Positions 54 to 28,557 of a stretch of DNA of 38,797 bases are shown here, piece after piece. A model generated the notes under the pieces. The model had not been told where the DNA came from and ran no database searches. It worked only from the letters and a program-made list of their open reading frames with translations. The stretch is from the NCBI GenBank assembly GCA_021801765.1, contig JAJYXO010000005.1, forward strand, positions 1 to 38,797, read 5' to 3'. The position numbers and the translations under genes are program-made. Source of the stretch: Candidatus Micrarchaeota archaeon (lineage in GTDB: Archaea > Micrarchaeota > Micrarchaeia > Micrarchaeales > CABMGC01). The stretch's first letter is position 1. Every line of letters begins with the position of its first letter.

Positions 54-128
54 TGCTCCCATCGGGATTTGAACCCGAGTTTCGAGAGTGAGAGTCTCGC
101 GTCCTTGACCGGGCTAGACAATGGGAGC
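54..128 (-). tRNA. tRNA-Glu (anticodon CUC), 75 nt, CCA not encoded
   Basis: The reverse complement folds by hand into a cloverleaf. Acceptor GCTCCCA/TGGGAGC, D stem GTCT/GGAC, anticodon stem CGAGA/TCTCG with loop CTCTCAC (CTC at 34-36), T arm TCGGG-TTCAAAT-CCCGA, discriminator A. Confidence 0.9.
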
Positions 129-1413: not shown

Positions 1414-1779
1414 TCAATCCTGCTGCGTCTTCACTCCTGTGAAGGATTCAACCATCTTCTCGTAGCGCTCCAAAGACTTAACTATCTCCTTAAGCTTCGG
1501 GTTTATATTATATCCAAGGTCGTATCCTCTTTCAGTCCTTATGTGAGTCGGCTGCAATATGTTCAGATTCATGGAAAGGTTCCTAAGCGTCAGAATCAGC
1601 GTTTTTCGCGTGAAACTCTTTCCAAGCATTGTGTACAGCTCCCGCGTTGTGCGTGGGGATTTTACCATAAGCAGCTTAAGAACAGCATAGTTAGGTTTGC
1701 TCAGAAGTTTCCTTATCATCCATATACCGTCTTCCTCTTTTTGCCTTGCCACGTTCGCACCCATTATTACTGTATACAA
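1414..1779 (-). CDS. Small winged-helix-like DNA-binding protein (tentative)
   Basis: 121 aa. The segment PRTTRELYTMLGKSFTRKTLILTLRNL reads like the HTH plus wing of a MarR/ArsR-type fold. It is divergent from the pilus locus. Assignment is by pattern only. Confidence 0.45.
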   Translation of the reverse strand: MYTVIMGANVARQKEEDGIWMIRKLLSKPNYAVLKLLMVKSPRTTRELYTMLGKSFTRKTLILTLRNLSMNLNILQPTHIRTERGYDLGYNINPKLKEIVKSLERYEKMVESFTGVKTQQD

Positions 1780-1847
1780 ACGAGGGCAAATCTTATAAAT
1801 GTATATTTAAGGCAACGTTCCTGCATTCGCGGAACTGAACTGCTGGA

Positions 1848-1890
1848 AAGATATAAAAACCCTTTGTTATATTATAATATATATTATTTA
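1848..1890 (+). promoter_or_regulatory. AT-rich TATA-like region upstream of the pilus ATPase gene
   Basis: aaagatataaaaac and ttatattataatatatatt lie 23-65 nt upstream of the ATG at 1913, in a 133-nt divergent intergenic region. Confidence 0.3.
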
Positions 1891-1912
1891 CTTAAGTAAA
1901 TAAATTGATACT

Positions 1913-3364
1913 ATGATAAACATAAAAGGAGCCTTTGTCCCTTTCCTGGGAGCAGTTATAAGAGGAGAAAAGCCTCAGCAGAGGGGAAGCGCGCTCAGTT
2001 TTACCCTCTCAGGCGCATGGGCCGGAGAGATAGTAGAAGAGAGAGGCGGCAGAATCAGCAGGCGCATCAGCAAGTCCAGAGGCGAATACTTTTACATCCT
2101 TGGAGAGGAACTCTCCGCCGCGGATAAAAAGCTTGCTGAGATGGCCAAGGCTGATCTAATCGATTTCGCATCTGCGGCCCCCGAAGAGATTGGCCTTGAA
2201 ACGGCATTCAACTATTCTTATGGGAAGCTTGCCGGCAATGCCAAAGCGGAGATGCTAGCCTATCTGATCTCTCACGATACAGTCGGGAACGGGCCGTTGG
2301 GCATCCTTCTGGAGGATAAAGCAGTGATAGAAGAGATAGAAGTGAGCACACCTACCGGGCCAATATCCGTCTACACCTCCAATTACGGCAGATGCCGCAC
2401 AAACATATCCTTTACAGGAGAAGAGGCTTTTAGGCACACAATCAACAAATTCATATACGAACAAGACAAAGAGCTTAACGACGCCAGCCCTGTAATCGAT
2501 GTCCAGGTCAACGAGGCAAGAGTCCATGCACAAGTTAAGCCATACGCATCTAGCGGCGCAGCCGCATCGATAAGGATAGGAGGAGGAAAGGAAATAGGGA
2601 TAAAAGCAATGCTCAGCGGCAGATCCCTCGATGCGAATATCCTTGCGTATCTGTCGATGGCTGTGGAAGCAAGAATGAATATGGTTGTTGCAGGTGCTCC
2701 GGCAAGCGGTAAAACCACGCTTCTCTCCCTCATAGGATCTTTCATATCAAAGCAAAGCAAACTTGTGGTGATAGAAGAAGATATCAACGAATTGAGATTT
2801 GAAGAGCCAGTGATGAATGTCACTTCCCTATATGGATCTAGGTTCGGGAACGTAAACCCGTCCGAACAGGTAATAAATGCCCTGAGGTTAAGGCCTGATA
2901 GGATAATAATCGGCGAGATACGTGGCAGAGAAGCCAGTGAATTGTTCTCTGGAGCTAACCTCGGAATCCCATTTATAACCACGATGCATAGCAACGAAGA
3001 GAATTTAGCAATAATAAAGAGGCTCATTTCAAAGCCTATGTCGGTGGAGGCAAGATCAATGAGCATGTTAGACCTTGCAGTCTACATGCGGCAGTCGGGG
3101 GTGCGTAGCAGAATAGTCTCCAGCATAAAAGAATACCTATGGTTCAGCAGAGCTGAAACCGAGGCAGGGATGGATCTTGGAGAAGGGGAATCCGTGGAAG
3201 AGAAAACAGTAGCCAAGGATGGGGTAATGCCTCCAGAATGCATAGGTGACTCTAAGGTAATCACATGCTATGCGAAGTTTGCTGCGATAACTTATAAGTC
3301 TGCATTGAGGGAACTCAGGAGGAGGGCTGCAGAGTATGGAAAATACACATTGCCTGAGGGATAA
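1913..3364 (+). CDS. Type II/IV secretion-family ATPase (archaeal PilB/FlaI-like pilus assembly ATPase)
   Basis: Walker A GAPASGKTT, Asp box VVIEEDINEL, Walker B RIIIGEIRGREA and His box TTMHSN give the full VirB11/GspE/FlaI signature. Confidence 0.9.
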   Translation: MINIKGAFVPFLGAVIRGEKPQQRGSALSFTLSGAWAGEIVEERGGRISRRISKSRGEYFYILGEELSAADKKLAEMAKADLIDFASAAPEEIGLETAFNYSYGKLAGNAKAEMLAYLISHDTVGNGPLGILLEDKAVIEEIEVSTPTGPISVYTSNYGRCRTNISFTGEEAFRHTINKFIYEQDKELNDASPVIDVQVNEARVHAQVKPYASSGAAASIRIGGGKEIGIKAMLSGRSLDANILAYLSMAVEARMNMVVAGAPASGKTTLLSLIGSFISKQSKLVVIEEDINELRFEEPVMNVTSLYGSRFGNVNPSEQVINALRLRPDRIIIGEIRGREASELFSGANLGIPFITTMHSNEENLAIIKRLISKPMSVEARSMSMLDLAVYMRQSGVRSRIVSSIKEYLWFSRAETEAGMDLGEGESVEEKTVAKDGVMPPECIGDSKVITCYAKFAAITYKSALRELRRRAAEYGKYTLPEG

Positions 3365-3366
3365 AC

Positions 3367-4047
3367 ATGGTGCTAAAAACTGTAACAGAAGCGGCATGGA
3401 TTTTTATATTTGCAGCAGCTATCTGCTCTGCACTCTTCTATGCAGATGGAGGCTCAGCTTCAATCTATCTCCTCCTTCCCGCATCGATAATCTTTGTAGC
3501 AACAGTCCACGGCCTTATGCAACACTTCCGTATCTTATATTCAAAGCATGCACGAGAGGAGGAGCTCGCCAAAGCCCTCAGGCTATTCATGTACTGCACT
3601 TCGCGCGGCATGCCTACAATAAAAGCCATTGAAAAAATACAATCTGAAGCTAGCTACAGTGCCACAGTCTCCTTGCTGCGCAGGGCATCTAAAAGAATGA
3701 AAATGGGCGAAGGTCTAGGCGAAGCGATAGAGCGCGCAGGCTTTTCCTGCCAGGATTTTTTGGTCAAAGCCCTGAAAGCAAAGCCACTTGCGGAGGCGCT
3801 AGAGGAGCATGAAAGGAGAAGAAAGGAGAGATTATTGCATATTAAAGAATCTTCCGGAATGAGAGCCACAATGAGCATGTTTGTATCTACTATAATGCCA
3901 TCGTTTATTATCTTCGCATATGTGGGTGGCAATGTTGCCTACAGCGAGAGAACAGGGATTCTGCCATTCTCACTAGGCATCTGCCTGATGCTTCCTGCAA
4001 TATACGCCATATGCGCTTCAATGCTGCGAAGGGGATTATTTGAATAA
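3367..4047 (+). CDS. Half-size pilus platform protein (T2SSF/TadB-TadC/FlaJ-like), copy 1
   Basis: 226 aa with N-terminal TM helices, a helical soluble core of about 120 aa (EELAKALRLF...RGMPTIKAIEKI...MGEGLGEAIERAG) matching the T2SSF pattern, and C-terminal TM helices. It starts 2 nt after the ATPase stop. Confidence 0.6.
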   Translation: MVLKTVTEAAWIFIFAAAICSALFYADGGSASIYLLLPASIIFVATVHGLMQHFRILYSKHAREEELAKALRLFMYCTSRGMPTIKAIEKIQSEASYSATVSLLRRASKRMKMGEGLGEAIERAGFSCQDFLVKALKAKPLAEALEEHERRRKERLLHIKESSGMRATMSMFVSTIMPSFIIFAYVGGNVAYSERTGILPFSLGICLMLPAIYAICASMLRRGLFE

Positions 4048-4771
4048 AATCATTATGGCATTTATCGTCGTGTGTGAATTGCTTATCCTTCTTGCGGTAA
4101 TCTACGGGATACCCTATGCTGCTGTAGCAGCATTGGCGCTTGGCTCAATGCACTTTTTCTTTTTTAAGACATATAATCAAAGGAAGGCAGAGATTGGGGC
4201 CGCGCTGGATAGCATTATAGCAGATTACACCAAAGGACGCTCTGCGGTCAGAGCAGCGCTGCACTCTACAATTCCTGAGCTCCGCGAAGTTGCAAGGACC
4301 TATATGCTTGGCGATTTTCTCTGCGAAGAAGAGGCAAAGCAGCATAGCCACATCGATGAGCTGAAGAATATGCTATCCTACGGCATTGTTTCCGGAAGGG
4401 ATATATGCGAGAGCCTGAAGATGATGAAAGGCAGGCTGGAATACGAGGCCGGAGTGCTAAGCGCAATCAAGGAGCATGCAGGCAGCATGGAGCTCCTCGC
4501 TTATGTTGGAGTAGTCTTTTTTGTGCCCTTGTTCGGTGGAATAAGCGCGAGCATAATGGGCAGCCTCACTACGATGGGCGGGGGAGGAGTCCAAGCCGGG
4601 GGGTTTACGCTGATAATCCTTATATACGTCACCTTTATTCTTTGCATAACATCCTCTCTTGCGAAACCTGAAGCAGGAATGCTGGAAAAGGCCTACGCCA
4701 TAGCTCCTGCGCTTCTGATATCATCTTCAATACTTTTCAGCCTGCCTCCATTCATGAATGGCATTTTATAG
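4040..4771 (+). CDS. Half-size pilus platform protein (T2SSF-like), copy 2
   Basis: 243 aa with the same architecture: N-terminal TM, helical core (GRSAVRAALHSTIPELREVA...SGRDICESLKMMKGRLE), C-terminal TM helices. It overlaps copy 1 by 8 nt. Confidence 0.55.
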   Translation: MNKIIMAFIVVCELLILLAVIYGIPYAAVAALALGSMHFFFFKTYNQRKAEIGAALDSIIADYTKGRSAVRAALHSTIPELREVARTYMLGDFLCEEEAKQHSHIDELKNMLSYGIVSGRDICESLKMMKGRLEYEAGVLSAIKEHAGSMELLAYVGVVFFVPLFGGISASIMGSLTTMGGGGVQAGGFTLIILIYVTFILCITSSLAKPEAGMLEKAYAIAPALLISSSILFSLPPFMNGIL

Positions 4772-4780
4772 GTGTAAAAA

Positions 4781-5053
4781 ATGGAAATGGAAAAACTCTT
4801 ATGGAAAATGTACAGTATGCTGCCTGCAGAGGCAAAGGCATTCCTTGCTCTGGCAAAAAGCAAAAAGGCCCAGGGGTCTCTGGAGTATATAATGATGGTG
4901 GCAGCTGCAAGCATAGTGATAGTTGTAGCGCTTGCCATGGTAGTGAAACTGAAAGGAGCCGTTATAAGCCATGTTTCTATAAACGGCACAAACGACAGCA
5001 TCTCCCAGGCCATATCCGGCGAGCTTGGGTCTCTCTCAAACACAATAGGGTGA
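4781..5053 (+). CDS. Pilin-like protein with class III (type IV pilin-like) signal peptide
   Basis: KKA-QGSLEYIMMVAAASIVIVVALAMVV has basic residues, then Q-x-S-x-E, then a hydrophobic helix. The leader is unusually long, so the true start may be an internal Met (codon 10 or 13). Confidence 0.7.
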   Translation: MEMEKLLWKMYSMLPAEAKAFLALAKSKKAQGSLEYIMMVAAASIVIVVALAMVVKLKGAVISHVSINGTNDSISQAISGELGSLSNTIG

Positions 5054-5445
5054 GTCGAATAAGACTGAAAGGCCAAATGTCATTAGAGTTCCTGCTCTAT
5101 TCTGCAGTCGCAGGCATAGCAATCGCGCTGTCTATCTATATGCTTGCCAGAACCGGAGGGGAGCTTTCAAGGGCCGTAGGAGCCTATATGGTTGGCAGGT
5201 TCTTCTCAGAGGCAAGCGCCGCTGCAGAATCCAGCGGTCAGTTTTACGCGTACCTCCCGCCTGGAATATGCAACTCCACAATCAATGGAAGCGAAGTAAG
5301 CACTGCATATGGGGATTTCTACATTCCTGGCAGGATTGAAATAAACAACAGATCTTTATGCCCTGACAAGATGTTCGCTTCGTTTGAAATAACATATAAC
5401 GATGCATCTGGCTCTGAAGAGGTGGTAAGACGCTTGTCCAGGTAA
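5050..5445 (+). CDS. Pilin-like protein with class III signal peptide (GTG start proposed)
   Basis: Only the 3' part of track ORF 4801..5445 looks real. A GTG at 5050, overlapping the previous TGA as GTGA, gives MSRIRLKG-QMSLEFLLYSAVAGIAIALSIYML. The alternative ATG at 5077 would leave no charged leader. Confidence 0.65.
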   Translation: MSRIRLKGQMSLEFLLYSAVAGIAIALSIYMLARTGGELSRAVGAYMVGRFFSEASAAAESSGQFYAYLPPGICNSTINGSEVSTAYGDFYIPGRIEINNRSLCPDKMFASFEITYNDASGSEEVVRRLSR

Positions 5446-5456
5446 GCGCAGAGGTA

Positions 5457-5627
5457 ATGGTAAGCATGGCTGTCTCATTATTGCTCGCTCTTGCATGCTC
5501 TATCCTCATAGCGCACATGTATCTGCTTGGCAGCTCCAGCTTGAATAGGATGCAATCCCTATATTCCAACTCGTATCTTTACTTCAAAGAGATGCTCGGC
5601 GCATGCAGCTGCCTCGAAGGCGTTTAA
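5457..5627 (+). CDS. Small hydrophobic-N-terminus protein (56 aa), possible minor pilin-like subunit
   Basis: Not in the track because it is under 60 aa. The ATG at 5457 is preceded by gaggt. The product is MVSMAVSLLLALACSILIAHMYLLGSS..., and its TAA ends at 5627, directly abutting the next start at 5628. Confidence 0.45.
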   Translation: MVSMAVSLLLALACSILIAHMYLLGSSSLNRMQSLYSNSYLYFKEMLGACSCLEGV

Positions 5628-5960
5628 TTGATGATCTCTGTTGATATGATAATCGCAGTGCCGCTGGTTGCCATAGCAATAACCTTAATCGCAGGAAGCT
5701 ATTATAGCGTACAGGCTTATACTGTCTCTGCTGCAGGATACGATGCGCATATAGAGGCAGCTTACGCTGCTTCCCAGGCAATAGAAACTGCGCTTTTATC
5801 AGCAGGCTATCCTTCGGAAATGGAAGCAACCGAGATCGCAAAGCCTTACGGCCTGCAGGCGCAGCTGCTGCCATTTTCCTACAATTTTTCTTGTGGATAC
5901 ATGGAAGCATGCCGTACTGCAACCATAGGGGGTAAGGAATATATACTGGCGGTGAAATGA
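5628..5960 (+). CDS. Pilin-like/membrane-anchored protein (N-terminal hydrophobic helix, no clear Q-x-S-x-E)
   Basis: MMISVDMIIAVPLVAIAITLIAG... Start is TTG at 5628 or ATG at 5631. It is translationally coupled on both sides, with an ATGA overlap with the next gene. Confidence 0.55.
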   Translation: MMISVDMIIAVPLVAIAITLIAGSYYSVQAYTVSAAGYDAHIEAAYAASQAIETALLSAGYPSEMEATEIAKPYGLQAQLLPFSYNFSCGYMEACRTATIGGKEYILAVK

Positions 5961-7246
5961 AGATAAAAACCCAGTCAAGCTTGGAGTTCTTGCTGATACT
6001 ATCTGCCATATCTGCATTAAGCCTTGCCGCGCTATCAATCTATGGGAAAGAAGTTGCTTATGGCAAGGATGCTGCATCCCTTATATTCAATGGAATAAAC
6101 TCTTCGCAAATCAACTATTCCACTACCTACCCTGACAACCCTGGAGTATCCATATATGTGCCAATAAATTCAAGCGCATACATGAAGAACAGAATGCAGA
6201 TAATTGCATATGGATGTGAAAGCGGATCTGCATCAGCGCACCTGAGCTCTACATCTATGGTATTTTCCGAAAATGCAATATCTGCAAAAGTCAATGGCAT
6301 CAGCATAATTGGGGATTACTTTGAGCCATTGTCAGTAGGAAACGGAGAGTTGAATGTTTCATACGCAATAAATTGCACAAACAAGAATCTCACCGGATCA
6401 GAGTCTTTTTCCACATATTCACGCGCCAACTCTACTTCCGAATCTGCCCCATTGTCATTTTATATGACGGATAGAAACGAATCTGAGCGCTACCCTATGG
6501 AAACTGGGGCTCTTTTATCCGCAAGCCAATTCAACCACTGCACCTATGTGAATTTCTTCGGGAACCCCTATGGGGTTGGACCTCAATGCGGCACCCCTGA
6601 TGCATGGGACTTTCGCGCATCAACGCAGCACTGCTATCAGGTTTATGTCTATACGATCACATATTGCGTAGTGCCAGAAGATTCAGGGTATAATCTCAGT
6701 TCTGTGGAGATTGGCAATGCCACTTATATCTACTATTTCACCATGCACATCAACTCTGGATATGGGGATCTGCTCTCGAGCATTTCCAGCAGCTCAAGGA
6801 ACTCTGAAGTCACTCTAAACGGCAGCAATGTGGGAAATGCCTCGGTATCCGATGTCTTTTCACAAATGCAACCTCTCTACACTGAGTTCATATCAAAAGA
6901 CACCTCCTACGCAAGCATAAACAGCTCTGCATACGAAATGTATTCTGAGGATAAAAATGGCCTATATTCTGAGCTTGGCTTCTACAATTCCACGCAGGTC
7001 TCATACGATACGGTTTCGCAGGAGGATGCTGCAGTCTCAGCATACCTGGCTTCAGTTCGCAGCTTGATAGGAAGCAATGGAAGCGTAGGCGCGGGTTGCG
7101 CCATATATAATGATACATACACATGCAAACCCAACCTGCCTTTTGAGTATGTAATAAACGTGACATTAAGCAAGGGCCTCGGGATTGGCAACGAGACCCT
7201 CTCTTACGAAGGCTCAATAGTCAACATAAAGGAGGCGAGCAATTGA
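5957..7246 (+). CDS. Large pilin-like protein with class III signal peptide and a sequon-rich extracellular domain (candidate adhesin or tip subunit)
   Basis: The N-terminus is MKIKT-QSSLEFLLILSAISALSLAALSIY. My manual count finds about 18 N-x-S/T sequons in 429 aa, plus several Cys residues. Confidence 0.75.
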   Translation: MKIKTQSSLEFLLILSAISALSLAALSIYGKEVAYGKDAASLIFNGINSSQINYSTTYPDNPGVSIYVPINSSAYMKNRMQIIAYGCESGSASAHLSSTSMVFSENAISAKVNGISIIGDYFEPLSVGNGELNVSYAINCTNKNLTGSESFSTYSRANSTSESAPLSFYMTDRNESERYPMETGALLSASQFNHCTYVNFFGNPYGVGPQCGTPDAWDFRASTQHCYQVYVYTITYCVVPEDSGYNLSSVEIGNATYIYYFTMHINSGYGDLLSSISSSSRNSEVTLNGSNVGNASVSDVFSQMQPLYTEFISKDTSYASINSSAYEMYSEDKNGLYSELGFYNSTQVSYDTVSQEDAAVSAYLASVRSLIGSNGSVGAGCAIYNDTYTCKPNLPFEYVINVTLSKGLGIGNETLSYEGSIVNIKEASN

Positions 7247-7608
7247 AGGCCCAATTTGCTATTTTAGAGGCAATGGTAGCACTTGCAGTTGCCATCTCTG
7301 TAACAATCTTCTGCATAAATGCAATAAGCAGCGAAGGCAGGTCATCTGCAATCTCTGAAACCCAGCTTCGCTTATCAGCAGCAGAGTATGATTTTATAAG
7401 AGGGATCTACGGCAATGAGAGCATGGGCACATGCATAAAATCTTACCTCTCTGGCAATACTGGCTGCATGATCAAATATAAAATGTATTATAAGAGAGTC
7501 TATGGCCTTGGCAGTTTCCGCATTATCGGAGAAAATGGCTCTGGAAACGGGGAGATTCGCTGCTTTCCATATACTAATTATACCGAAATATGCATACTTG
7601 CTGGGTGA
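7243..7608 (+). CDS. Pilin-like protein with class III-like signal peptide
   Basis: A TTG start at 7243 has ggagg 8 nt upstream and overlaps the previous TGA. The N-terminus is MKA-QFAILEAMVALAVAISVTIF. Confidence 0.65.
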   Translation: MKAQFAILEAMVALAVAISVTIFCINAISSEGRSSAISETQLRLSAAEYDFIRGIYGNESMGTCIKSYLSGNTGCMIKYKMYYKRVYGLGSFRIIGENGSGNGEIRCFPYTNYTEICILAG

Positions 7609-7900
7609 TATTATCGCTCTTTATGGAATTGCGCTTATCTTTATATCCCTTGCAGCTGCAATCTCTGTATCTTTTGTGACCCACGAAGCCTACTACCTGC
7701 GCGGGATAAGGCAGGAAGAGTATGGGGAAGCATCAGCAATGTTTGTAAGTTCATTTGCAACTGCATCTTCAGCACAGGGAATCAGCGCCGGCTACGCAGC
7801 ATTTGTTGCTTCTTACGACAGGCTCAACCTGAGCGAAGGGCTGCAGGGATATGAAATCTATGACCCTGCCAGCGGAACATTTGTGATAGGCAGGAGATGA
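7598..7900 (+). CDS. Small protein with N-terminal hydrophobic helix (start uncertain)
   Basis: The track ORF 7502..7900 overlaps the previous gene by 107 nt. A TTG at 7598 would give LLGDIIALYGIALIFISLAAAISVSFV... with only an 11-nt overlap. Starts at ATG 7502 or 7535 cannot be excluded. Confidence 0.45.
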   Translation: MLGDIIALYGIALIFISLAAAISVSFVTHEAYYLRGIRQEEYGEASAMFVSSFATASSAQGISAGYAAFVASYDRLNLSEGLQGYEIYDPASGTFVIGRR

Positions 7901-7960: not shown

Positions 7961-8197
7961 ATGATAAGCGCAATAGTTACATCGCTCGATGAGCAAAGGC
8001 TCCTTGTTACGCCTTCAGAGAACGTCGAACTTCAGAATCTTTTGGGCAAAAAAGCACAATATCTGGACAAGACAGGAAAGGCATGGCCTGGAGTTGTGAC
8101 AGAGATAGAGGACCCGTTTCTAGTAATAAAATTTGAACCTTTCCCGACGGGCATAGGGCAAGGCCAGATAGTAGACATAATCGACGAACAAGAGTAA
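7961..8197 (+). CDS. Small beta-barrel-like protein, Gar1-like (tentative)
   Basis: 78 aa. LGKKAQYLDKTGKAWPGVVTEIEDPFLVIKFEP...GQGQIVDII loosely follows the archaeal Gar1 pattern (xGKxIGxVxDxxGPxxxPYxxVK). This is a weak call. Confidence 0.3.
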   Translation: MISAIVTSLDEQRLLVTPSENVELQNLLGKKAQYLDKTGKAWPGVVTEIEDPFLVIKFEPFPTGIGQGQIVDIIDEQE

Positions 8198-8201
8198 GGC
8201 G

Positions 8202-8960
8202 TCAGGCCTGCATCCTGCTCCTTATTATCCTGTCAAGCTTGCTTCCGAATTTCTCCTTTCTCCCGAATCTAACTACTCTGAGCTCCTTATCGGAGAGCCG
8301 CACGCGGAACCTGTCTCCCTTCCCAAGCACTCCGAGCTCCTTTCCATCGTATTTCAGCTTCCCTCTGTACTTAGCCACTTCTACCTCCAGCCTCTTTTTT
8401 GAATCCACTACTATCGGGTTCCTGTAAGGGCCGTCTACGTTCAGGAATGTAATGCAGAAGACATCAGGGCTTAGTATTATGGGCCCTCCTGCGGATTTGT
8501 TATACGCTGTAGATCCAACAAGGCCTGTTACCAGCATTCCATCACCGCTCATCACATAAGGATATATCTCATATCTTATATTCTTCTCTATTTCGTATAT
8601 CCTGAAGCTTACTTCCTCAAGGGCGTTGTTAAGCACTATCTCATTTATCGCGTAGTGCTTCTTTCCCTTGTACTCCACCTCTATCTTATTGCCAAGCTTC
8701 TCTATGGAATACCTTTTTTCCTTCAGGCTATCTACCATGTATCCGATCTCTTCAAGGCTGAGGTCTGCGTAATAGCCTATGCTGCTCTCATCTCCGCTTC
8801 TTATCGGGAGTATGGGACCGTCGAATTCCCTCGCGGCACGTATAAATGTTCCATCGCCCCCCACCGCTACGCATATTTCCCCTTTCCTGACCACGTCGAA
8901 TTCAGAGTAAAGCCTCTTTAGCTCAGGATAATCTCTCTTCTTTATCAGTGTTATCTTCAT
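8202..8960 (-). CDS. nadK: NAD kinase
   Basis: GGDGT motif (VAVGGDGTFIRAA), NE motif (AINEIVL) and GDGMLVTGLVGSTAYNKSAGGPI. I place the start at MKITLIKK (8960), 5 nt after the E3 stop. The track's 43-aa N-terminal extension overlaps the E3 gene. Confidence 0.9.
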   Translation of the reverse strand: MKITLIKKRDYPELKRLYSEFDVVRKGEICVAVGGDGTFIRAAREFDGPILPIRSGDESSIGYYADLSLEEIGYMVDSLKEKRYSIEKLGNKIEVEYKGKKHYAINEIVLNNALEEVSFRIYEIEKNIRYEIYPYVMSGDGMLVTGLVGSTAYNKSAGGPIILSPDVFCITFLNVDGPYRNPIVVDSKKRLEVEVAKYRGKLKYDGKELGVLGKGDRFRVRLSDKELRVVRFGRKEKFGSKLDRIIRSRMQA

Positions 8961-8964
8961 TTTG

Positions 8965-10341
8965 TCATTCCTTGCCTGACATTTTTCCGTAAAAGAAATG
9001 CACCGGTCTTCCCAATGCAGCCTCTGCGGCTTCCTGCATGAGCTCCCCGAATGTAGGGTGCGGATGAATGGTATCTGCAATGTCTTCAATTGATGCGCCC
9101 ATCTCTATGGCCAGAGCAGCCTCGGATATTAGTGCGTTGGCGTCTTCCGAAACTATCTCCACTCCCCTGACTATTCCATCTTCGTCTATGGCTATCTTGA
9201 TGAATCCTTCTGTCTTGCCTAATGCCACTGCCCTGCCAAGCCCGCTCAGCGGAAACTTCGTCACCTTTATTCCTTCTCCTTCCAACTCACCTGCCATAGC
9301 CATTTCAGGGTCTGAGAATATAACTGATGGTATAACCACATTGTCGAAAGCAGAGTTTATCCCAGACGCTACCTCAGCAGATATCACTCCCTGCCTTATC
9401 GATTTGTGTGCAAGCATCGGCTGGCCTATAACGTCGCCTACTGCAAGTATATTCTCATCGTCTGTCCTCAGCGATCCATCCACCTTTACAAATCCTTTGC
9501 TATCAAGCTTCACCTTGGTCTTCTCCAGGCCAAGGCCTTCGGTGTAAGGAGAGAGGCCCACTGCTACAACCAGCTTCTCTGCAGCCACAGACTCACCATT
9601 ATCCAATGAGAGCGACCCTGCTGCATATGAGGCAGGCTCAACGCCTATGTGTATCTCCACTCCAAGCTCCTTCATCCGCTTCTTAACCAGCGCAACTGCA
9701 TCCTTGTCGAACTTCGAGAGGACATCCGATCTTGCTATAATGTGGACTTTGCATCCTAGCTTAGCATAAAGCGTCGCCGTCTCAACAGCCACATATCCTG
9801 CGCCTATTATGGCCATGTTTGCCGGGATATAATCCAATGAGAGCGCCTGCTTATAATCGATTATATCTCCTCCGAATTCAAAGCCTTTCAGGCTGACAGG
9901 CTCCGAGCCTGTGGCTATTATCGCCTTCTTGAATGTTATCTCTGTTCCATCAGTCAGCATCAACCTCTCAGACGAAGCGAATGACGCCTCGCCTTTTATC
10001 ACCTCCACGCCATTTAATTTGCAGAGGGATCCTACTCCGCTCTCAAGCTTCTCTGATACGCTCATCCTCCATGCATGCATCTTCTTTGCATCCATAGAGA
10101 GTTTTCCTGAAATGCCGAATGCATCTGCATGCTGGGCGCTGTAAAAGAGATCTGCAATATGTATCAGCGTCTTGGAAGGTATGCAGGCATAATTGAGGCA
10201 GTGGCCTCCAAGCTTCTCTTTTTCTACAAGCACTACGCTCATCCCCAGCTGCGAAGCCCTTATTGCAGCTACATATCCTCCAACCCCTCCGCCTATTACT
10301 ACCAGATCTGCATTCTCCGGTAGTGACCCTACTACTCCCAT
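8965..10341 (-). CDS. lpdA: Dihydrolipoamide dehydrogenase (E3)
   Basis: FAD-binding GGGVGGYVAAIRASQLG, redox-active disulfide GGHCLNYACIPSK, and the interface domain HPHPTFGE. Confidence 0.95.
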   Translation of the reverse strand: MGVVGSLPENADLVVIGGGVGGYVAAIRASQLGMSVVLVEKEKLGGHCLNYACIPSKTLIHIADLFYSAQHADAFGISGKLSMDAKKMHAWRMSVSEKLESGVGSLCKLNGVEVIKGEASFASSERLMLTDGTEITFKKAIIATGSEPVSLKGFEFGGDIIDYKQALSLDYIPANMAIIGAGYVAVETATLYAKLGCKVHIIARSDVLSKFDKDAVALVKKRMKELGVEIHIGVEPASYAAGSLSLDNGESVAAEKLVVAVGLSPYTEGLGLEKTKVKLDSKGFVKVDGSLRTDDENILAVGDVIGQPMLAHKSIRQGVISAEVASGINSAFDNVVIPSVIFSDPEMAMAGELEGEGIKVTKFPLSGLGRAVALGKTEGFIKIAIDEDGIVRGVEIVSEDANALISEAALAIEMGASIEDIADTIHPHPTFGELMQEAAEAALGRPVHFFYGKMSGKE

Positions 10342-10342
10342 C

Positions 10343-11611
10343 TTATCCCAGCATCTCGAGGAAGTTTGGATCCTCGATGTACCTTATTACTGCGTTGCAG
10401 AAGAGCACTGCATCTGCCCCGTCAACTACGCGGTGGTCAAATGTCAGCGAAAGAGGCAGTATCTTACCTACTTTTACCATATCGCCCTGCACTACAGGCA
10501 TCTCCCTTACCAGGTGCACTCCAAGTATTGCTACCTCGGGATAGTTTATCATAGGCACAGAAAGGAACCCTCCTCCTAAACTGCCGATATTAGTTATAGT
10601 GAATGTGGAATCTCTCATCTCTTCTATGCTTATGGTCTGGTTCCTGACCTTGTCTCCAAGTTCCCTCACTTCCTTTGCTATCTGGCTGATGCTCTTCCTG
10701 TCGGCGTTCTTGATTACTATGACCTTCAGGCCATCAGGCGCCTCAGCTGCTAACCCTATGTTATAGTATTTCTTTTGTATTATCTCTCCCTTCTCATGGT
10801 CATAGCTCGCGTTGAATCTCGGGTACTCTTTCAGCGCCTCCACCACGGCTTTTATGATGAACGGTAGGAATGTGAGCTTTATGCCAAGCTTCTGCATCTT
10901 CTCCTTCTCTTTCTGCACCATTGAACTTAGGGATGTCGCATTTGCAATGTCCATATGCGACGCGCGCGGTATGGTCCAGGATAGCTCCATGTTCTTCGCT
11001 ATGGCTTTCCTTGTCTGCGAGAGAGGTATCCTCTCTATCTCCCCCGCGTGTTTCTCTTCAGTTACTTCTGAGAACTTAGGCATTGCAGAAGGATGTCCTG
11101 ATTTCATCGCATATGACCTTACATCGTTCTCCAGCACTCTTCCACTTGGCCCAGTTCCTGTTACTATTGATATGTCAATGTTGAGTTCTCTTGCGAGTTT
11201 ACGCACCGAAGGAGTTGCAAGCACTTCCTTTTGCTGTGTGGCTGATGCAGCAGCCTCAGGTTTTGAAGCTCTCTGAGTTTCAGGAGCTATGCCTGCAGCA
11301 ACGGCGTTTAGCTGAGATGCTGGCTGCTGTTTTTGAACAGCCTGTGGCGCTCCAGCCGCAGAGAGCTCCGCGGGTTCCCCGACGTATGCAAGCAAGTCCC
11401 CTACCTTGACGTTCTGATCCTCCTTGATTAGCAGTTTTATCGTTCCGGATATAGGCGATGGCACATTAACAACCGCCTTGTCAGTCTCTATCTGCGCAAG
11501 AGATTGGTCCTCCTTCACAGTATCGCCGTCCTTCACAAGCCATTTGTGCAGATGGCCTTCTGTTATTCCTTCCCCGATATCAACAAATTTTATCTCCTTC
11601 ATTCTTACCAC
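10343..11611 (-). CDS. Dihydrolipoamide acyltransferase (E2) with a single lipoyl domain
   Basis: Lipoyl-lysine motif IETDKAVV, an Ala/Pro linker, the E3-binding domain PSVRKLARELNIDISIVTGTGPSGRV, and the catalytic DHRVVDGA. Confidence 0.95.
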   Translation of the reverse strand: MVRMKEIKFVDIGEGITEGHLHKWLVKDGDTVKEDQSLAQIETDKAVVNVPSPISGTIKLLIKEDQNVKVGDLLAYVGEPAELSAAGAPQAVQKQQPASQLNAVAAGIAPETQRASKPEAAASATQQKEVLATPSVRKLARELNIDISIVTGTGPSGRVLENDVRSYAMKSGHPSAMPKFSEVTEEKHAGEIERIPLSQTRKAIAKNMELSWTIPRASHMDIANATSLSSMVQKEKEKMQKLGIKLTFLPFIIKAVVEALKEYPRFNASYDHEKGEIIQKKYYNIGLAAEAPDGLKVIVIKNADRKSISQIAKEVRELGDKVRNQTISIEEMRDSTFTITNIGSLGGGFLSVPMINYPEVAILGVHLVREMPVVQGDMVKVGKILPLSLTFDHRVVDGADAVLFCNAVIRYIEDPNFLEMLG

Positions 11612-12576: not shown

Positions 12577-12578
12577 TC

Positions 12579-16549: not shown

Positions 16550-17452
16550 TCACGGTGGGTTGTAGCTGTCTATCCATCCACTTGTAAACGAGATATCTGC
16601 TGGTATTACGTTGTTTCCGTTTCCAGAGTAGTCGTTTGCATTGCCATTGAGGGGCCACCAACCAACAAGGTTCTGCAGATCTATCGGTACTCCTCCGATT
16701 CCTTCCTGATAGATGGTATTTACTGAAGGCCAATCTAATGTATTATTATATTCCTGTACATTAGAGATACTCCCTTGAAAGAATCTATTACCGCAGCATT
16801 GCTGATAGCCAAAAATATTAAAGATCGGTGCTCCGTTATCCGGCGCAGCAGTAGATGCTGGGAACAATTCCCTCTGATTGTTCACATATATCGCTATGCT
16901 AGTAGAACTAATGGAGTAGCCTACAAAATTCCACCTGCCCAATTGCACTTGTAAGTTGCTATCGAAGTTAGTTTCCCCATTCCATACTACTACATTACCA
17001 TCTGTCATTAATGCTATCTGAAATGCGCCGCAATATGGCGAGTCTCCCCCGCATGAAAGTTGGTTACCGTCAAACTCAGATATAACTTGAAAATTACTAG
17101 ACCCAAAACTAGTGGGATATATCCACTGGAAATTGGAGAATGGAAACGCATAAATGCCATTTCCATATGCATAACTGCTCTGCCCGTTTAATTGTCCAAC
17201 ATATTTGGGCACTTCATTGTTGCAGACTCCAAGCAGGTTTATGTCGTATGAGGTCCCCGCGCCATTTGGCCGGAAAACCTGGCAGCTTCCTGGGTTAGCC
17301 TTTGGAGCGAAGTAGAGAGGATTGAAGACTCCGAGGTAGGCAAGAGCGCCTAGGACAACTGCTACAATCAGTATCGACCAGCCGTAGGTCATCAGGTACT
17401 CCATTGCAGATTGAAGCCTTGGATCATTACCTGACAAGGTATCATCTACCAT
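16550..17452 (-). CDS. Class III signal peptide protein fused to a LamG/concanavalin-like domain (paralog 1)
   Basis: N-terminus PRL-QSAMEYLMTYGWSILIVAVVLGAL. The centre follows a LamG-like pattern (LNGQSSYAYGNG..., W..VGYS...IYVNN, F.GSISNVQEYNNTL). The C-terminus carries WWPLNGNANDYSGNGNN. Confidence 0.75.
   Translation of the reverse strand: MVDDTLSGNDPRLQSAMEYLMTYGWSILIVAVVLGALAYLGVFNPLYFAPKANPGSCQVFRPNGAGTSYDINLLGVCNNEVPKYVGQLNGQSSYAYGNGIYAFPFSNFQWIYPTSFGSSNFQVISEFDGNQLSCGGDSPYCGAFQIALMTDGNVVVWNGETNFDSNLQVQLGRWNFVGYSISSTSIAIYVNNQRELFPASTAAPDNGAPIFNIFGYQQCCGNRFFQGSISNVQEYNNTLDWPSVNTIYQEGIGGVPIDLQNLVGWWPLNGNANDYSGNGNNVIPADISFTSGWIDSYNPP
16553..16735 (-). repeat. Conserved 3' block shared with 25857..26040
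   Basis: It includes an identical 33-mer, atctatcggtactcctccgattccttcctgata, at 16679-16711 and 25983-26015. The encoded C-termini are nearly identical. Confidence 0.75.
17201..17413 (-). repeat. Conserved 5' block shared with 26553..26765
   Basis: A manual alignment of about 193 nt (17221-17413 against 26573-26765) shows about 19 mismatches, roughly 90% identity. The block covers the signal peptide and the first 70 mature residues. Confidence 0.8.
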
Positions 17453-18125: not shown

Positions 18126-18126
18126 G

Positions 18127-19506: not shown

Positions 19507-19516
19507 GATATCACCT

Positions 19517-22693: not shown

Positions 22694-22697
22694 CAGC

Positions 22698-23252: not shown

Positions 23253-23264
23253 TGATTCTCCACC

Positions 23265-23507: not shown

Positions 23508-23515
23508 TTTTTCAC

Positions 23516-25853: not shown

Positions 25854-26786
25854 TCATGGTGCACTATAACCACTCATCCAACTATTTGCAAACAAGATGT
25901 TTGTAGGCACGCCATTGTTCCCGTTTCCTGAATAATCGTTTGCGTTTCCATTCAGCGGCCACCAGCCTACAAGGTTATGCAAATCTATCGGTACTCCTCC
26001 GATTCCTTCCTGATAAAGTGCATTTACGGAAGGATAGTCCAAAGAGGAATTATACATCTGCATATCAGCTATGCTAACTGCTGAATATCCTCCTTCTCCT
26101 CCTCCTACCACGAAGTTTCCAGTACCAGCGGTTGCAGGGCCGTTTGCCACGCCTGAGCTAAACTGAAGAAGATTCGAATACCCAAGGCTAGAATAACCGA
26201 CGTAGTAATCTGCGCTGCCTGCTGCATAGTTATAAGTAAAGCATGCAAAAACCCATTTGCCTTGCAAATCAGCATAGGAGAAGTAATCACTTGAAGCTGT
26301 AGCTATGTTTCCACCTCCCTGATTCCATACGGTAAATCCTTCTATGCCTCCCCCCTGATCCATTGTATATTCCCAAGAATTGCCATTGCTAGGAGATAAC
26401 TCGCCTTTAATCATCGGGCCAGCATAACCTGTGTAGGAGTTTACCCTATACCACATGCAGAACGTCATTGCGCCATTTGCTCCAGCTTCAGGACTAAGCA
26501 TTGCGCCATTCCCGAAGTTAACCAGCGAATCCTTCCCATTGAATGTCGCAGCATACTTGGGTATCTCGTTGCTGCAGACTCCAAGAAGGTTTATGTCATA
26601 TGAGGTTCCAGCGCCGTTTGGCCGGAAAACCTGGCAGCTTCCTGGATTTGCCTTCGGAGCGAAATAAAGAGGATTGAAGACTCCAAGATAGGCGAGCGCG
26701 CCTAGGACAACTGCTACAACCAGTATGGACCATCCGTAGGTCATCAGGTACTCCATCGCTGATTGGGATCTTCGGCAATATGGCAT
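25854..26786 (-). CDS. Class III signal peptide protein fused to a LamG/concanavalin-like domain (paralog 2)
   Basis: N-terminus RRS-QSAMEYLMTYGWSILVVAVVLGAL. The centre is LamG-like (FNGKDSLVNFGNG, MTFCMWYRV, WVFACFTYN, SIADMQMYNSSL). The C-terminus carries WWPLNGNANDYSGNGNNG. Confidence 0.75.
   Translation of the reverse strand: MPYCRRSQSAMEYLMTYGWSILVVAVVLGALAYLGVFNPLYFAPKANPGSCQVFRPNGAGTSYDINLLGVCSNEIPKYAATFNGKDSLVNFGNGAMLSPEAGANGAMTFCMWYRVNSYTGYAGPMIKGELSPSNGNSWEYTMDQGGGIEGFTVWNQGGGNIATASSDYFSYADLQGKWVFACFTYNYAAGSADYYVGYSSLGYSNLLQFSSGVANGPATAGTGNFVVGGGEGGYSAVSIADMQMYNSSLDYPSVNALYQEGIGGVPIDLHNLVGWWPLNGNANDYSGNGNNGVPTNILFANSWMSGYSAP
25857..26040 (-). repeat. Conserved 3' block shared with 16553..16735
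   Basis: See the partner feature. The blocks share an identical 33-mer. Confidence 0.75.
26553..26765 (-). repeat. Conserved 5' block shared with 17201..17413
   Basis: See the partner feature. About 90% nt identity by manual alignment. Confidence 0.8.
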
Positions 26787-28546: not shown

Positions 28547-28557
28547 ACGATCATCTT

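What the first reader, a model, noticed from the sequence alone, without database searches (positions are those of the whole stretch)
1913..7900. Ten-gene type IV pilus-like locus with an unusually large set of pilin-like subunits
One secretion ATPase, two platform-like proteins and seven small or medium proteins with N-terminal hydrophobic helices are packed with spacings from -11 to +11 nt. There are four start/stop overlaps and one 0-nt junction. Four proteins carry the archaeal class III signal pattern (basic residues, then Q at +1, S at +3, E at +5): A-QGSLEY, G-QMSLEF, T-QSSLEF and A-QFAILE. It is not an archaellum locus, because it has no FlaB-type flagellins and no FlaC-H accessory genes. 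No A24 prepilin peptidase lies in the window. One major-pilin candidate, several minor-pilin-like proteins and a 429-aa glycoprotein suggest a tip-decorated adhesive filament. If the genome is a small-celled episymbiont, this would be a candidate host-attachment apparatus. I cannot assign it to a named archaeal pilus class (Aap, Ups, Epd and others) from sequence alone.
Basis: partly seen in the sequence, partly recalled or inferred. Interest (0 to 1): 0.7.

Follow-up and report, generated by a model that had tools for sequence, protein, structure and literature searches.

The report
Conserved Micrarchaeota type IV pilus operon
This is a real ten-gene operon for building a type IV pilus in a tiny DPANN archaeon (Micrarchaeota); the same operon is present across the phylum and already appears in published genome tables, so it is a sound but largely ordinary finding.

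Summary
Window 1913-7900 carries ten tightly packed + strand genes: one secretion ATPase, two half-size TadC/T2SSF platform proteins and seven proteins with N-terminal hydrophobic helices.

The window comes from a Micrarchaeota MAG. The same gene order was recovered in most of the 80 Micrarchaeota loci fetched, including cultivated Ca. Micrarchaeum harzensis A_DKE (Micr_00422-00431). Golyshina 2017 lists a matching architecture in Mia14.

Ortholog alignments show Q+1 class III signals in five families (g4, g5, g6, g8, g9), not four.
- g4 is a Flp-like major pilin of about 60 aa (Pfam PF04021).
- g8 is a lineage-restricted, cysteine- and sequon-rich protein of about 430 aa.
- g7 and g10 are conserved membrane-anchored proteins that mostly lack a standard leader.

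The ATPase is closest to AfGspE (Makarova clade 2, arCOG01817), not FlaI or CpaF. It is not an archaellum. The prepilin peptidase is encoded elsewhere, as in A_DKE.

New here: a very conserved small gene transcribed divergently upstream, and a conserved palindrome (TTTACTTAAGTAAA) at the inferred transcription start. Together they suggest a dedicated repressor and operator.

Host attachment is plausible but untested. The A_DKE orthologs are only weakly transcribed in co-culture.

Verdict: new member of a known kind, moderate to low interest.

The parts
1414..1764 (-). Small conserved protein ('up', about 108-116 aa), transcribed divergently from the operon. It is a candidate winged-helix DNA-binding regulator.
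   Evidence: tblastn hits in 76 of 83 loci, always about 120-480 nt upstream of the ATPase on the opposite strand, at 55-91% identity. It is the best-conserved protein of the neighbourhood. Mean column identity is 71%. HTH evidence is weak: HVO_A0114 in 10 of 34 members, HTH_20 in 6 of 34, best E 0.016. The AF2 single-sequence model has pLDDT 58.6 and Foldseek gave no significant match. The A_DKE ortholog is Micr_00421, annotated 'hypothetical', TPM 3.9.
1846..1859 (+). BRE/TATA-like promoter element GAAAGATATAAAAA for the operon.
   Evidence: Read directly from the sequence. Similar GAAAG[GA]TATA[AT]A elements lie about 40-44 nt before the palindrome start in many related loci. Its role as a promoter is inferred from the archaeal TATA-to-start spacing of about 26-27 nt.
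1887..1900 (.). Perfect 14-bp palindrome TTTACTTAAGTAAA, ending 12 nt upstream of the ATPase ATG. It is a candidate operator at about +5 to +20 of the inferred transcript.
   Evidence: It is the only match in the window at up to 2 mismatches. The exact 10-mer TACTTAAGTA occurs once in each of 23 loci, always just upstream of the ATPase. A match to TTACTTAAGTAA with up to 2 mismatches is found in 49 of 74 up-g1 intergenic regions (18.4 kb), against 29 matches in the remaining 1.137 Mb, an enrichment of about 100-fold. It is conserved whether non-coding (window group) or read as codons 2-6, MFYLSK, of the ATPase ORF. The RNA hairpin is weak: -4.7 kcal/mol, z -1.1.
1913..3364 (+). g1: pilus assembly ATPase (PilB/GspE/FlaI superfamily).
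   Evidence: Pfam T2SSE 5e-19. The Walker A motif GAPASGKTT and other motif residues are invariant among 21 orthologs. Best PDB relative is AfGspE 2OAP (E 5e-31; family profile 183 bits), ahead of CpaF (137) and FlaI (122). More than 1000 homologs were found; of those that carry a source name, all are Micrarchaeota, and the best is 53% identical.
3367..4047 (+). g2: first half-size TadC/FlaJ-type platform protein.
   Evidence: Pfam T2SSF 3.3e-6. Polytopic by hydropathy. Present in 63 loci.
4040..4771 (+). g3: second half-size TadC/FlaJ-type platform protein.
   Evidence: The window copy has no Pfam hit, but 10 of 33 orthologs hit T2SSF (best 5e-6). The g2-family versus g3-family profile comparison gives 95.4% probability, E 1.7e-8. 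In locus L001 g2 and g3 are one 440-aa ORF.
4781..5053 (+). g4: major-pilin candidate. It has a leader of about 30 aa and a mature part of about 60 aa beginning QGSLEYIMM.
   Evidence: Pfam Class_IIIsignal PF04021 matches the window copy and all 46 orthologs scanned. Q31, S33, E35 and Y36 are invariant, and the VNGTNxS sequons are conserved. It is the best-conserved operon protein, at 39-79% identity. The A_DKE ortholog Micr_00425 is arCOG04026 pilin and KEGG K02651 Flp/PilA, and has the highest TPM in the operon.
5050..5445 (+). g5: minor pilin-like protein (131 aa), ...LKG-QMSLEF.
   Evidence: Orthologs in 69 loci share M[KR][AG]-Q[LMI]S[LF]E[FLM] followed by a hydrophobic helix.
5439..5627 (+). 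g6: very small pilin-like protein. The conserved pilin N-terminus QVSAEVM starts at 5439, but the first canonical start codon is ATG 5457.
   Evidence: Positional orthologs (55-75 aa) begin M[KR]x-Q[IVLM]S[LF]E and end with a CxC motif, which the window copy retains as CSC. In the window no ATG, GTG or TTG lies between the in-frame stop 5415-5417 and the Q codon at 5439. The three source assemblies are identical here.
5628..5960 (+). g7: conserved N-terminally anchored protein (110 aa) with the motif xIS[LM]D[LM]xxAxP.
   Evidence: tblastn hits in 19 loci and motif or position matches in 33. About half of the orthologs have a [KR][GA] leader and the rest, including the window copy, start at the hydrophobic segment. 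There is no Pfam TadE hit.
5957..7246 (+). g8: large pilin-like surface protein (429 aa), MKIKT-QSSLEF, rich in Cys and sequons.
   Evidence: Orthologs are 413-444 aa with invariant Q6, E10, F11, C195, C211, C226, C237 and G293. It has 18 N-x-S/T sequons, 4.2 per 100 aa against about 0.5 in cytoplasmic proteins of the window. HMMER against 1.84 billion representatives finds only 162 hits, most of them full length. The AF2 model is poor (pLDDT 47), showing an N-terminal helix followed mostly by beta strands.
7243..7608 (+). g9: minor pilin-like protein (121 aa), LKA-QFAILE.
   Evidence: Orthologs share M[KR][AL]-Q[FL]A[TF][IF]E, with E at +6, and are seen directly after g8 in nearly all loci.
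7598..7900 (+). g10: conserved N-terminally anchored protein (about 100 aa) with no basic leader.
   Evidence: Positional orthologs of 72-116 aa in 34 loci begin M[SG][FA][YF]G[LIM] followed by a TM helix; the window copy begins MLGDIIALYGIAL. It is not related to g7 (hhalign 7.8%).
16550..17452 (-). LamG (concanavalin-like) protein with a class III signal, RL-QSAMEYLMTYGW. It is a possible pilus-associated lectin encoded outside the operon.
   Evidence: Pfam Laminin_G_3 5.6e-10. N-terminus and motif scan. Golyshina 2017 notes LamG proteins linked to T4P loci in Mia14.
25854..26786 (-). Paralog of the LamG protein, with the same class III N-terminus (RRS-QSAMEYLMTYGW) and the same C-terminal block.
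   Evidence: Translation and motif scan. It has no Pfam hit of its own.

Best explanation
This is the Micrarchaeota copy of a phylum-wide operon that assembles a type IV pilus.

Shown by homology:
- g1 is the hexameric-family assembly ATPase.
- g2 and g3 are the two halves of a split TadC/FlaJ-type membrane platform.
- g4 is a Flp-like minimal pilin of Pfam family PF04021, with glutamine at +1.
- g5, g6, g8 and g9 belong to families with the same Q+1 class III signal.

Inferred mechanism:
- A prepilin peptidase encoded elsewhere in the genome cuts after [KR][AG]. In A_DKE this is an EppA/FlaK-type enzyme.
- The ATPase and platform then extract the mature subunits from the membrane and polymerise g4 into the fibre.
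- The low-abundance pilin-like proteins g5, g6, g8 and g9 prime assembly and sit at the tip. The large, disulfide- and glycan-rich g8 would be the exposed cap.
- g7 and g10 are membrane-anchored accessory proteins.

Inferred regulation: transcription starts about 27 nt after the TATA box at 1851-1858. It is probably gated by the divergently encoded small protein (1414-1764) binding the palindrome at 1887-1900.

Inferred role: attachment to surfaces, biofilm matrix or the Thermoplasmatales host, possibly together with the LamG proteins that carry class III signals elsewhere in the window.
For: - Component identities.
- Conserved ten-gene order with the divergent upstream gene in the related Micrarchaeota loci long enough to show it, including A_DKE.
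- Class III motifs conserved at family level.
- g4 is the most conserved and, in A_DKE, the most transcribed operon gene.
- g8 has constant length, invariant cysteines and about eight-fold sequon enrichment.
- The prepilin peptidase is in trans in relatives: A_DKE Micr_00634, arCOG02300 EppA/PulO, and Mia14_0570.
- The palindrome is about 100-fold enriched at this position and is conserved in both coding and non-coding contexts.
- In A_DKE the regulator has TPM 3.9 while the operon genes have 0.08-0.45.
Against: - No filament, processing event or binding event has been observed for this system in any organism.
- In the A_DKE co-culture the orthologs are transcribed below typical housekeeping genes (0.08-0.45 against about 0.5-1.5 TPM) and below the second, CpaF-type pilus system (1.6-2.5 TPM). 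This operon may therefore not be the main surface filament under those conditions.
- The DNA-binding nature of the upstream protein rests on weak HTH hits only. Its model was low-confidence and Foldseek found nothing.
- g6 in this window lacks a canonical start before its pilin N-terminus.
- g7 and g10 lack standard leaders, so 'seven pilins' overstates the count.
- g8 could not be modelled, so its placement as a tip or cap rests on analogy only.
Confidence: 0.82

Rival explanations
1. The machine builds only a short pseudopilus. This would act as a piston or scaffold to export or display other class III-signal surface proteins, such as the LamG proteins. That would make it like the Sulfolobus bindosome system or a type II secretion pseudopilus, not a long adhesive fibre.
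For: - Two LamG-type proteins with class III signals are encoded outside the operon.
- The ratio of minor-type subunits to the single major pilin is high.
- Transcript levels of the A_DKE orthologs are low.
- NCBIfam gives a weak hit to the bindosome ATPase BasE.
Against: - g4 has the features of a fibre-forming Flp-like pilin and is the most strongly conserved subunit.
- The BasE score is far below its cutoff (64 against 1000 bits).
- No substrate-binding proteins are linked to the locus.
Confidence: 0.12
2. The pilus serves DNA or cytoplasmic exchange with the host (a Ups- or competence-like role), not adhesion as such.
For: Golyshina 2017 speculates that the type IV pili of Mia14 could mediate DNA exchange with Cuniculiplasma, given extensive lateral transfer.
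Against: - The operon and its flanks in the window contain no DNA-binding, translocase or nuclease gene.
- The published idea is speculation without data.
Confidence: 0.06
3. The locus is largely silent or decaying in this genome, and several of the small ORFs are not functional.
For: - g6 has lost a canonical start codon before its conserved N-terminus.
- g7 lacks a leader.
- The A_DKE orthologs have low TPM.
- Public gene callers skip g6 and g9.
Against: - All ten reading frames are intact and their order, sizes and motifs are conserved across genomes whose ATPases share only 37-53% identity.
- Three assemblies of this population differ by only 1-4 bases from the window over 6.5 kb, with no frame disruptions.
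Confidence: 0.05
4. It is a reduced archaellum (motility) locus.
For: Some public annotations call the ATPase orthologs 'FlaI'.
Against: - There is no archaellin domain and no FlaF, FlaG, FlaH, FlaC/D/E or FlaX.
- The FlaI equivalog scores 134 bits against a cutoff of 550.
- The ATPase is closer to AfGspE and CpaF than to FlaI.
- Golyshina 2017 reports no archaellum genes in Mia14.
Confidence: 0.01

Closest known systems
Ca. Micrarchaeum harzensis A_DKE Micr_00421-00431 (Krause et al. 2022, Suppl. Data S5), and the Mia14 system MIA14_0252-0260 (Golyshina et al. 2017)
   Same: Orthologous operon. The order and sizes match: divergent small gene, ATPase (about 509 aa, arCOG01817), two platform halves of about 250-270 aa, a 68-aa Flp/PilA-like pilin, then proteins of 126, 70, 120, 442, 127 and 106 aa. 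The Mia14 table lists an ATPase, TadC, a 'component', several class III pilins, a class III 'component' and another pilin.
   Different: - Protein identity to A_DKE is only 27-59%.
- The window ATPase starts downstream of the palindrome, whereas many relatives read through it.
- The window g6 lacks a canonical start.
- Neither paper characterises the system experimentally, and in A_DKE eight of the eleven genes are annotated 'hypothetical'.
Euryarchaeal clade 2 type IV pili of Makarova, Koonin and Albers 2016 (arCOG01817 ATPases such as AfGspE and the Haloferax volcanii PilB3/PilB4 loci)
   Same: - The ATPase is closest to AfGspE, which that paper places in clade 2, arCOG01817.
- The locus often has two tadC genes.
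- It has its own pilin set.
- It has one large (250-550 aa), beta-rich, class III 'minor pilin', arCOG02911, comparable in size and role to g8.
   Different: - The pilins here are of the PF04021 Q+1 type, not the PilA (arCOG02416) type. The A_DKE major pilin is arCOG04026.
- g8 shows no detectable homology outside its own narrow family.
- No FleN/MinD gene is in the locus.
- Makarova's genome set did not include Micrarchaeota.
Methanococcus maripaludis Epd pili (Makarova clade 1)
   Same: - Pilins of the Class_IIIsignal (PF04021, formerly DUF361) family with Q at +1.
- A very small major pilin of about 70 aa.
- Two TadC-like platform genes.
- At least five minor pilin-like proteins.
- An EppA-type peptidase in relatives. 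That EppA is specific for Q+1 pilins is my own knowledge of Szabo et al. 2007 and was not checked here.
   Different: - The ATPase is not of the clade 1, CpaF-like arCOG01819 type. Micrarchaeota carry a separate arCOG01819 system (Micr_00442-445, MIA14_0170-0177).
- There are no DUF2341 adhesins, no EppA and no FleN in the operon.
Bacterial Tad/Flp pilus (CpaF/TadA, TadB, TadC, Flp, TadE/F)
   Same: - The platform is split into two T2SSF proteins.
- The mature pilin is about 60 aa with E at +5 and Y at +6.
- KEGG assigns the A_DKE ortholog to Flp/PilA K02651.
- CpaF is the second-best solved relative of the ATPase.
   Different: - TIGR03819 scores 138 bits against a cutoff of 373.
- There is no Pfam Flp_Fap or TadE hit.
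- There are no secretin or outer-membrane parts.
- The residue at +1 is Q after [KR][AG], not the Flp G/XXXXEY site.

Membership tests
Type IV filament (T4P-like) assembly system | PilB/GspE/FlaI-superfamily ATPase with intact nucleotide-binding motifs | tested here: met
   Pfam T2SSE 5e-19. GAPASGKTT and other motif residues are invariant in 21 orthologs. PDB relatives are AfGspE, CpaF and FlaI.
Type IV filament (T4P-like) assembly system | Polytopic T2SSF/TadC/FlaJ platform protein adjacent to the ATPase | tested here: met
   g2 hits T2SSF at 3e-6. For the g3 family, 10 of 33 members hit T2SSF, and hhalign against g2 gives 95.4%.
Type IV filament (T4P-like) assembly system | Subunits with a class III (prepilin) signal: short basic leader, small residue at -1, then a hydrophobic helix | tested here: met
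   g4, g5, g8 and g9 show it in the window. The g6 family shows it in orthologs. All 46 g4 orthologs hit PF04021.
Type IV filament (T4P-like) assembly system | A24-family prepilin peptidase in the genome | tested here: inconclusive
   None was found among the window ORFs scanned. The rest of this genome was not available. Relatives encode one in trans: A_DKE Micr_00634 (arCOG02300) and Mia14_0570.
Archaellum | FlaA/FlaB archaellins (PF01917) | tested here: not met
   None of the seven subunits hits an archaellin domain.
Archaellum | FlaI equivalog plus the FlaH, FlaF, FlaG and FlaC/D/E or FlaX accessory genes | tested here: not met
   The NCBIfam FlaI model scores 134 bits against a cutoff of 550. 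No accessory domains are in or beside the operon.
Makarova clade 2 (euryarchaeal, arCOG01817) T4P | ATPase groups with arCOG01817 clade 2 members | tested here: met
   The best solved relative is AfGspE (111 bits single sequence, 183 bits profile), ahead of CpaF and FlaI. AfGspE is labelled clade 2, arCOG01817. The A_DKE ortholog is annotated arCOG01817. This rests on score ranking and published annotation, not a full phylogeny.
Makarova clade 2 (euryarchaeal, arCOG01817) T4P | arCOG02911 large beta-rich minor pilin and a PilA-family major pilin | tested here: inconclusive
   g8 fits in size, signal and predicted beta content. No arCOG profiles were available, and HMMER finds only a narrow family. 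The major pilin ortholog is arCOG04026, not the PilA arCOG02416.
Epd pili (Makarova clade 1) | PF04021 Q+1 pilins and two TadC genes | tested here: met
Epd pili (Makarova clade 1) | Clade 1 (arCOG01819, CpaF-like) ATPase, with DUF2341 adhesins, EppA and FleN in the locus | tested here: not met
   The ortholog is arCOG01817, and a separate arCOG01819 system exists in A_DKE and Mia14. The operon has no DUF2341, A24 or MinD domains.
Bacterial Tad/Flp pilus | TadA/CpaF equivalog ATPase, Flp_Fap pilin and TadE/F pseudopilins | tested here: not met
   TIGR03819 scores 138 bits against a cutoff of 373. There is no Flp_Fap hit in g4 or its 46 orthologs and no TadE hit in the 31 g7-family members scanned. 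Only the E5-Y6 motif and a KEGG K02651 call on the A_DKE ortholog resemble Flp.

The most novel reading that the evidence does not exclude
The operon may be a phylum-wide pilus that is normally repressed. Its switch would be the divergently encoded, highly conserved protein of about 108 aa, acting on a palindromic operator placed at the transcription start. In many species that operator doubles as codons 2-6 of the ATPase. Once de-repressed, for example on host contact, the cell would build a Flp-like glycosylated fibre capped by a Micrarchaeota-specific, disulfide-rich protein of about 430 aa that recognises the Thermoplasmatales host. That would make it the conserved attachment organelle of this DPANN lineage.
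Probability: 0.2. Interest if true: 0.6.

Novelty: new member of a known kind. Interest (0 to 1): 0.35.

Why it matters
Micrarchaeota depend on physical contact with Thermoplasmatales hosts, and the molecules that make that contact are unknown. This operon is one of two pilus systems conserved across the phylum, and nobody has characterised it experimentally. This analysis adds several things:
- corrected gene models for the small subunits that gene callers miss or truncate;
- a family-level definition of each component;
- evidence that the large subunit is lineage-specific;
- a concrete, testable regulator-operator pair.

These give direct handles for work in the two cultivated systems (A_DKE and Mia14): antibodies to the g4 ortholog, gel-shift assays with Micr_00421, and transcription start mapping. 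In itself, a type IV pilus locus in a DPANN genome is expected and has been noted in published genome papers.

Tried and rejected
- **g8 structure.** AlphaFold2 could use only a 5-sequence alignment, because only window proteins and word-index hits may be submitted. It gave pLDDT 47. I did not run a fold search on it because matches would be meaningless.
- **g8 word-index searches.** A single-sequence search and a search with a 47-sequence profile returned only 4-5 proteins. The exhaustive HMMER search was needed to size the family.
- **Upstream protein.** Sequence and profile searches of the PDB gave nothing significant. Pfam gave only weak HTH hits. The single-sequence AF2 model (pLDDT 58.6) had no Foldseek match at E <= 0.001. 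The winged-helix assignment therefore stays a weak inference.
- **g7 as a TadE-like pseudopilin.** I proposed this because the spacing between the acidic residue and the proline looked similar. It is rejected: none of the 31 family members scanned hits TadE.
- **g7 and g10 as paralogs.** Rejected (hhalign 7.8%).
- **The palindrome as an RNA hairpin or known RNA.** The fold is weak (-4.7 kcal/mol, z -1.1), and Rfam finds only a tRNA at 54-128.
- **The palindrome as merely the coding sequence of an N-terminal peptide.** Rejected. It is kept in lineages where it is non-coding, and its variants are not confined to synonymous sites.
- **Prepilin peptidase in the window.** Not found. The presenilin-type SPP gene upstream in the source contig is family A22, not A24.

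Full report
**Observation**

The region 1913-7900 holds ten consecutive + strand ORFs.
- Spacings are +2, -8, +9, -4, +11, 0, -4, -4 and -11 nt. The stated range and the 0-nt junction are right, but there are five overlaps rather than four.
- Pfam identifies g1 as a T2SSE ATPase (5e-19) and g2 as a T2SSF platform protein (3e-6). It finds a Class_IIIsignal match in g4 (1e-4). The other seven have no hit in the window copy.
- Each of g4-g10 has a single N-terminal hydrophobic segment.
- The four quoted Q+1 motifs are present.
- No A24 peptidase was found among the window ORFs scanned.

**Origin**

The ATPase sequence is found identically on contigs of two Micrarchaeota MAGs (GCA_027355525 and GCA_027355485) and in a Logan assembly. 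Its homologs number more than a thousand. Of the best 120 listed, those that carry a source name are Micrarchaeota, and the closest outside this population is 53% identical. A scan of one genome per species returned 80 related loci. Nearly all are titled Micrarchaeota, and they include the complete genome of cultivated Ca. Micrarchaeum strain A_DKE.

**The genes are real and the operon is phylum-wide**

tblastn of the window proteins against these loci recovers the same order throughout: a divergent upstream gene, then g1, g2, g3, g4, g5, (g6), g7, g8, g9, (g10). Where tblastn was too insensitive (g6, g10 and often g7), ORFs of the right size and with family-specific N-termini sit at the expected positions.

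Public gene calls for the source contigs skip g6 and g9. They also start g5 at ATG 5077, which deletes its signal.

**Components**

*ATPase (g1).* It has invariant Walker A and other motif residues. Its best solved relative is Archaeoglobus fulgidus GspE (2OAP), ahead of CpaF and FlaI, both by single sequence and by family profile. It reaches no NCBIfam equivalog cutoff.

*Platform (g2 and g3).* These are two halves of a TadC/FlaJ-type platform.
- The g3 family matches the g2 family by profile comparison (95.4%, E 1.7e-8).
- Ten of 33 g3 orthologs hit T2SSF directly.
- In one locus the two are fused into one ORF.

*Major pilin (g4).*
- It is the best-conserved operon protein, at 39-79% identity.
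- All 46 orthologs scanned hit PF04021.
- The leader is long (about 20-35 aa) and itself conserved.
- The mature part is only about 60 aa. It starts with an almost invariant Q[GS]SLEYIMM and carries conserved VNGTNxS sequons.

*Minor pilin-like proteins with Q+1 signals.* g5, g8 and g9 have short M[KR]x leaders followed by Q. The g6 family (55-75 aa) has the same signal plus a C-terminal CxC motif.

*g6 in this window.* The conserved QVSAEVM codons lie upstream of the first canonical start, and no ATG, GTG or TTG lies between them and the preceding stop. This is identical in three assemblies. The codon at the expected start position is ACG. My inference is either an ATG-to-ACG change that now forces initiation at ATG 5457, or non-canonical initiation.

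*g7 and g10.* These are conserved, N-terminally anchored proteins. About half of the g7 orthologs, and all g10 orthologs, lack a basic leader. I would not call them pilins without further evidence.

*Large subunit (g8).*
- Its length is remarkably constant (413-444 aa), with invariant Q6, E10 and F11 and four invariant cysteines.
- It has 18 sequons, about eight times the density of cytoplasmic proteins in the window.
- It belongs to a family of only 162 representatives among 1.84 billion, most of them full length.
- It could not be modelled with confidence (pLDDT 47).

**Comparison with the literature**

Makarova, Koonin and Albers 2016 did not include Micrarchaeota. They describe clade 1 (Epd-type) and clade 2 (euryarchaeal) systems with two tadC genes, small major pilins, five or more minor pilins and large class III proteins. 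Their Figure S4 labels AfGspE as clade 2, arCOG01817.

Golyshina et al. 2017 report two type IV pilus systems in the Micrarchaeon Mia14.
- One is a CpaF-type system (MIA14_0170-0177).
- The other is a 'euryarchaeal-type' system (MIA14_0252-0260). Its listed content matches this operon: ATPase, TadC, a component, several class III pilins, a class III component and another pilin.
- They add that key components are shared by many Micrarchaea and that one FlaK-like peptidase is encoded elsewhere.

In Krause et al. 2022 (Supplementary Data S5), A_DKE genes Micr_00421-00431 have the lengths of the ORFs in locus L080, each one residue longer in the table.
- The ATPase is annotated arCOG01817.
- The 68-aa pilin is arCOG04026 and KEGG Flp/PilA.
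- The other eight genes are 'hypothetical'.
- The EppA/PulO-type peptidase is Micr_00634.
- A second, arCOG01819 CpaF-type system is Micr_00442-445.

The locus is therefore a member of a described but experimentally uncharacterised clade with the same gene content.

**Expression evidence from the relative**

The table reports TPM in co-culture:

| Genes | TPM |
|---|---|
| A_DKE operon genes (pilin highest) | 0.08-0.45 |
| Typical housekeeping genes in the same table | about 0.5-1.5 |
| CpaF-type system | 1.6-2.5 |
| Divergent upstream gene | 3.9 |

The small ORFs are thus transcribed, but weakly. TPM was computed over both organisms, so only comparisons within A_DKE are meaningful.

**A regulatory element not in the original finding**

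The upstream gene (1414-1764, minus strand) is the most conserved protein of the neighbourhood, at 55-91% identity and 71% mean column identity. It is present next to the ATPase in 76 of 83 loci. Its sequence gives only weak HTH matches, and modelling was uninformative.

Between it and the ATPase lie a BRE/TATA-like element (1846-1859) and, 28 nt further on, a perfect palindrome TTTACTTAAGTAAA (1887-1900).
- Matches to the palindrome core are about 100-fold enriched in this intergenic region relative to the rest of 1.1 Mb of related loci.
- In many species an ATG immediately precedes the palindrome at the spacing expected for a leaderless transcript. The ATPase ORF then begins MFYLSKRL.
- In the window lineage that ATG is ATT and a stop follows AAA, so the palindrome is non-coding, yet it is kept perfectly.
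- Its variants are not confined to synonymous positions, and the RNA fold is weak.

I therefore read it as a DNA operator at the transcription start, most simply for the neighbouring protein acting as a repressor. This is an inference, consistent with the high-regulator, low-operon transcript pattern in A_DKE.

**Function**

Assembly of a type IV filament is well supported by homology. The roles assigned within it are by analogy with bacterial T4P and T2SS priming complexes and with Makarova's models: g4 as the fibre, g5, g6, g8 and g9 as a priming or tip complex, and g7 and g10 as accessory proteins.

Adhesion to host or biofilm is the most likely role for a non-motile, host-dependent DPANN cell. 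Two LamG-type proteins with class III signals elsewhere in the window could be displayed by the same machinery. No experiment exists for any of this. Rival readings (a pseudopilus display system, a DNA exchange pilus, a decaying locus) are not excluded, but each has less support.

**Verdict**

The system is a new member of a known, phylum-conserved kind rather than an unusual one. Interest is moderate to low. The most useful new points are the corrected small-gene models, the lineage-specific large subunit and the candidate repressor-operator pair.

Noticed in passing
window 16550-17452 (-) and 25854-26786 (-): Two paralogous secreted proteins share an identical class III-type N-terminus (QSAMEYLMTYGWSIL...) and a common C-terminal block. 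One hits Pfam Laminin_G_3 (5.6e-10). They look like lectin domains fused to a pilin N-terminus, and one lies directly downstream of the A-type ATP synthase genes.
   Followed up: partly
window 5415-5460: The conserved pilin N-terminus of g6 (QVSAEVM) lies upstream of the first canonical start codon. The codon at the expected start position is ACG. The region is identical in three assemblies of this population.
   Followed up: partly
window 1880-1915 compared with loci L013, L017, L031 and others: In many related genomes the ATPase ORF starts at an ATG directly before the palindrome and reads it as MFYLSK. In the window lineage that ATG is ATT and a TAA stop follows. The ATPase has therefore lost roughly 11-14 N-terminal codons while the DNA palindrome is retained.
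   Followed up: yes
window 27500-28600 (-): An unannotated 366-aa protein with one N-terminal membrane anchor, 14 N-x-S/T sequons and 9 cysteines. It has no Pfam hit and is probably another surface glycoprotein.
   Followed up: no
window 7961-8197 (+): A 78-aa soluble ORF 60 nt after g10. It has no Pfam hit and was found only in the three assemblies of this same population, so it is not part of the conserved operon.
   Followed up: partly
window 8202-13535 (-): An NAD kinase gene is followed by a complete 2-oxoacid dehydrogenase set: E3, E2, E1 beta and E1 alpha. The longest NAD kinase ORF overlaps the E3 gene by about 125 nt, so its true start is probably further downstream. Golyshina 2017 places such dehydrogenase genes on laterally acquired islands in Mia14.
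   Followed up: no
locus L081 4349-5398 (source contig, just upstream of the window): A presenilin-type signal peptide peptidase (PF06550, family A22) lies two genes upstream of the ATPase in the source contig. It is not the A24 prepilin peptidase and is not syntenic in A_DKE.
   Followed up: partly
window 54-128 (-): A tRNA gene (Rfam RF00005, 60 bits) at the left edge of the window, overlapping the short ORF at 18-185.
   Followed up: no
window 17502-25372 (-): An A/V-type ATP synthase gene cluster (subunits D, B, A, C, E-like and I). It occupies the middle of the window and is unrelated to the finding.
   Followed up: no
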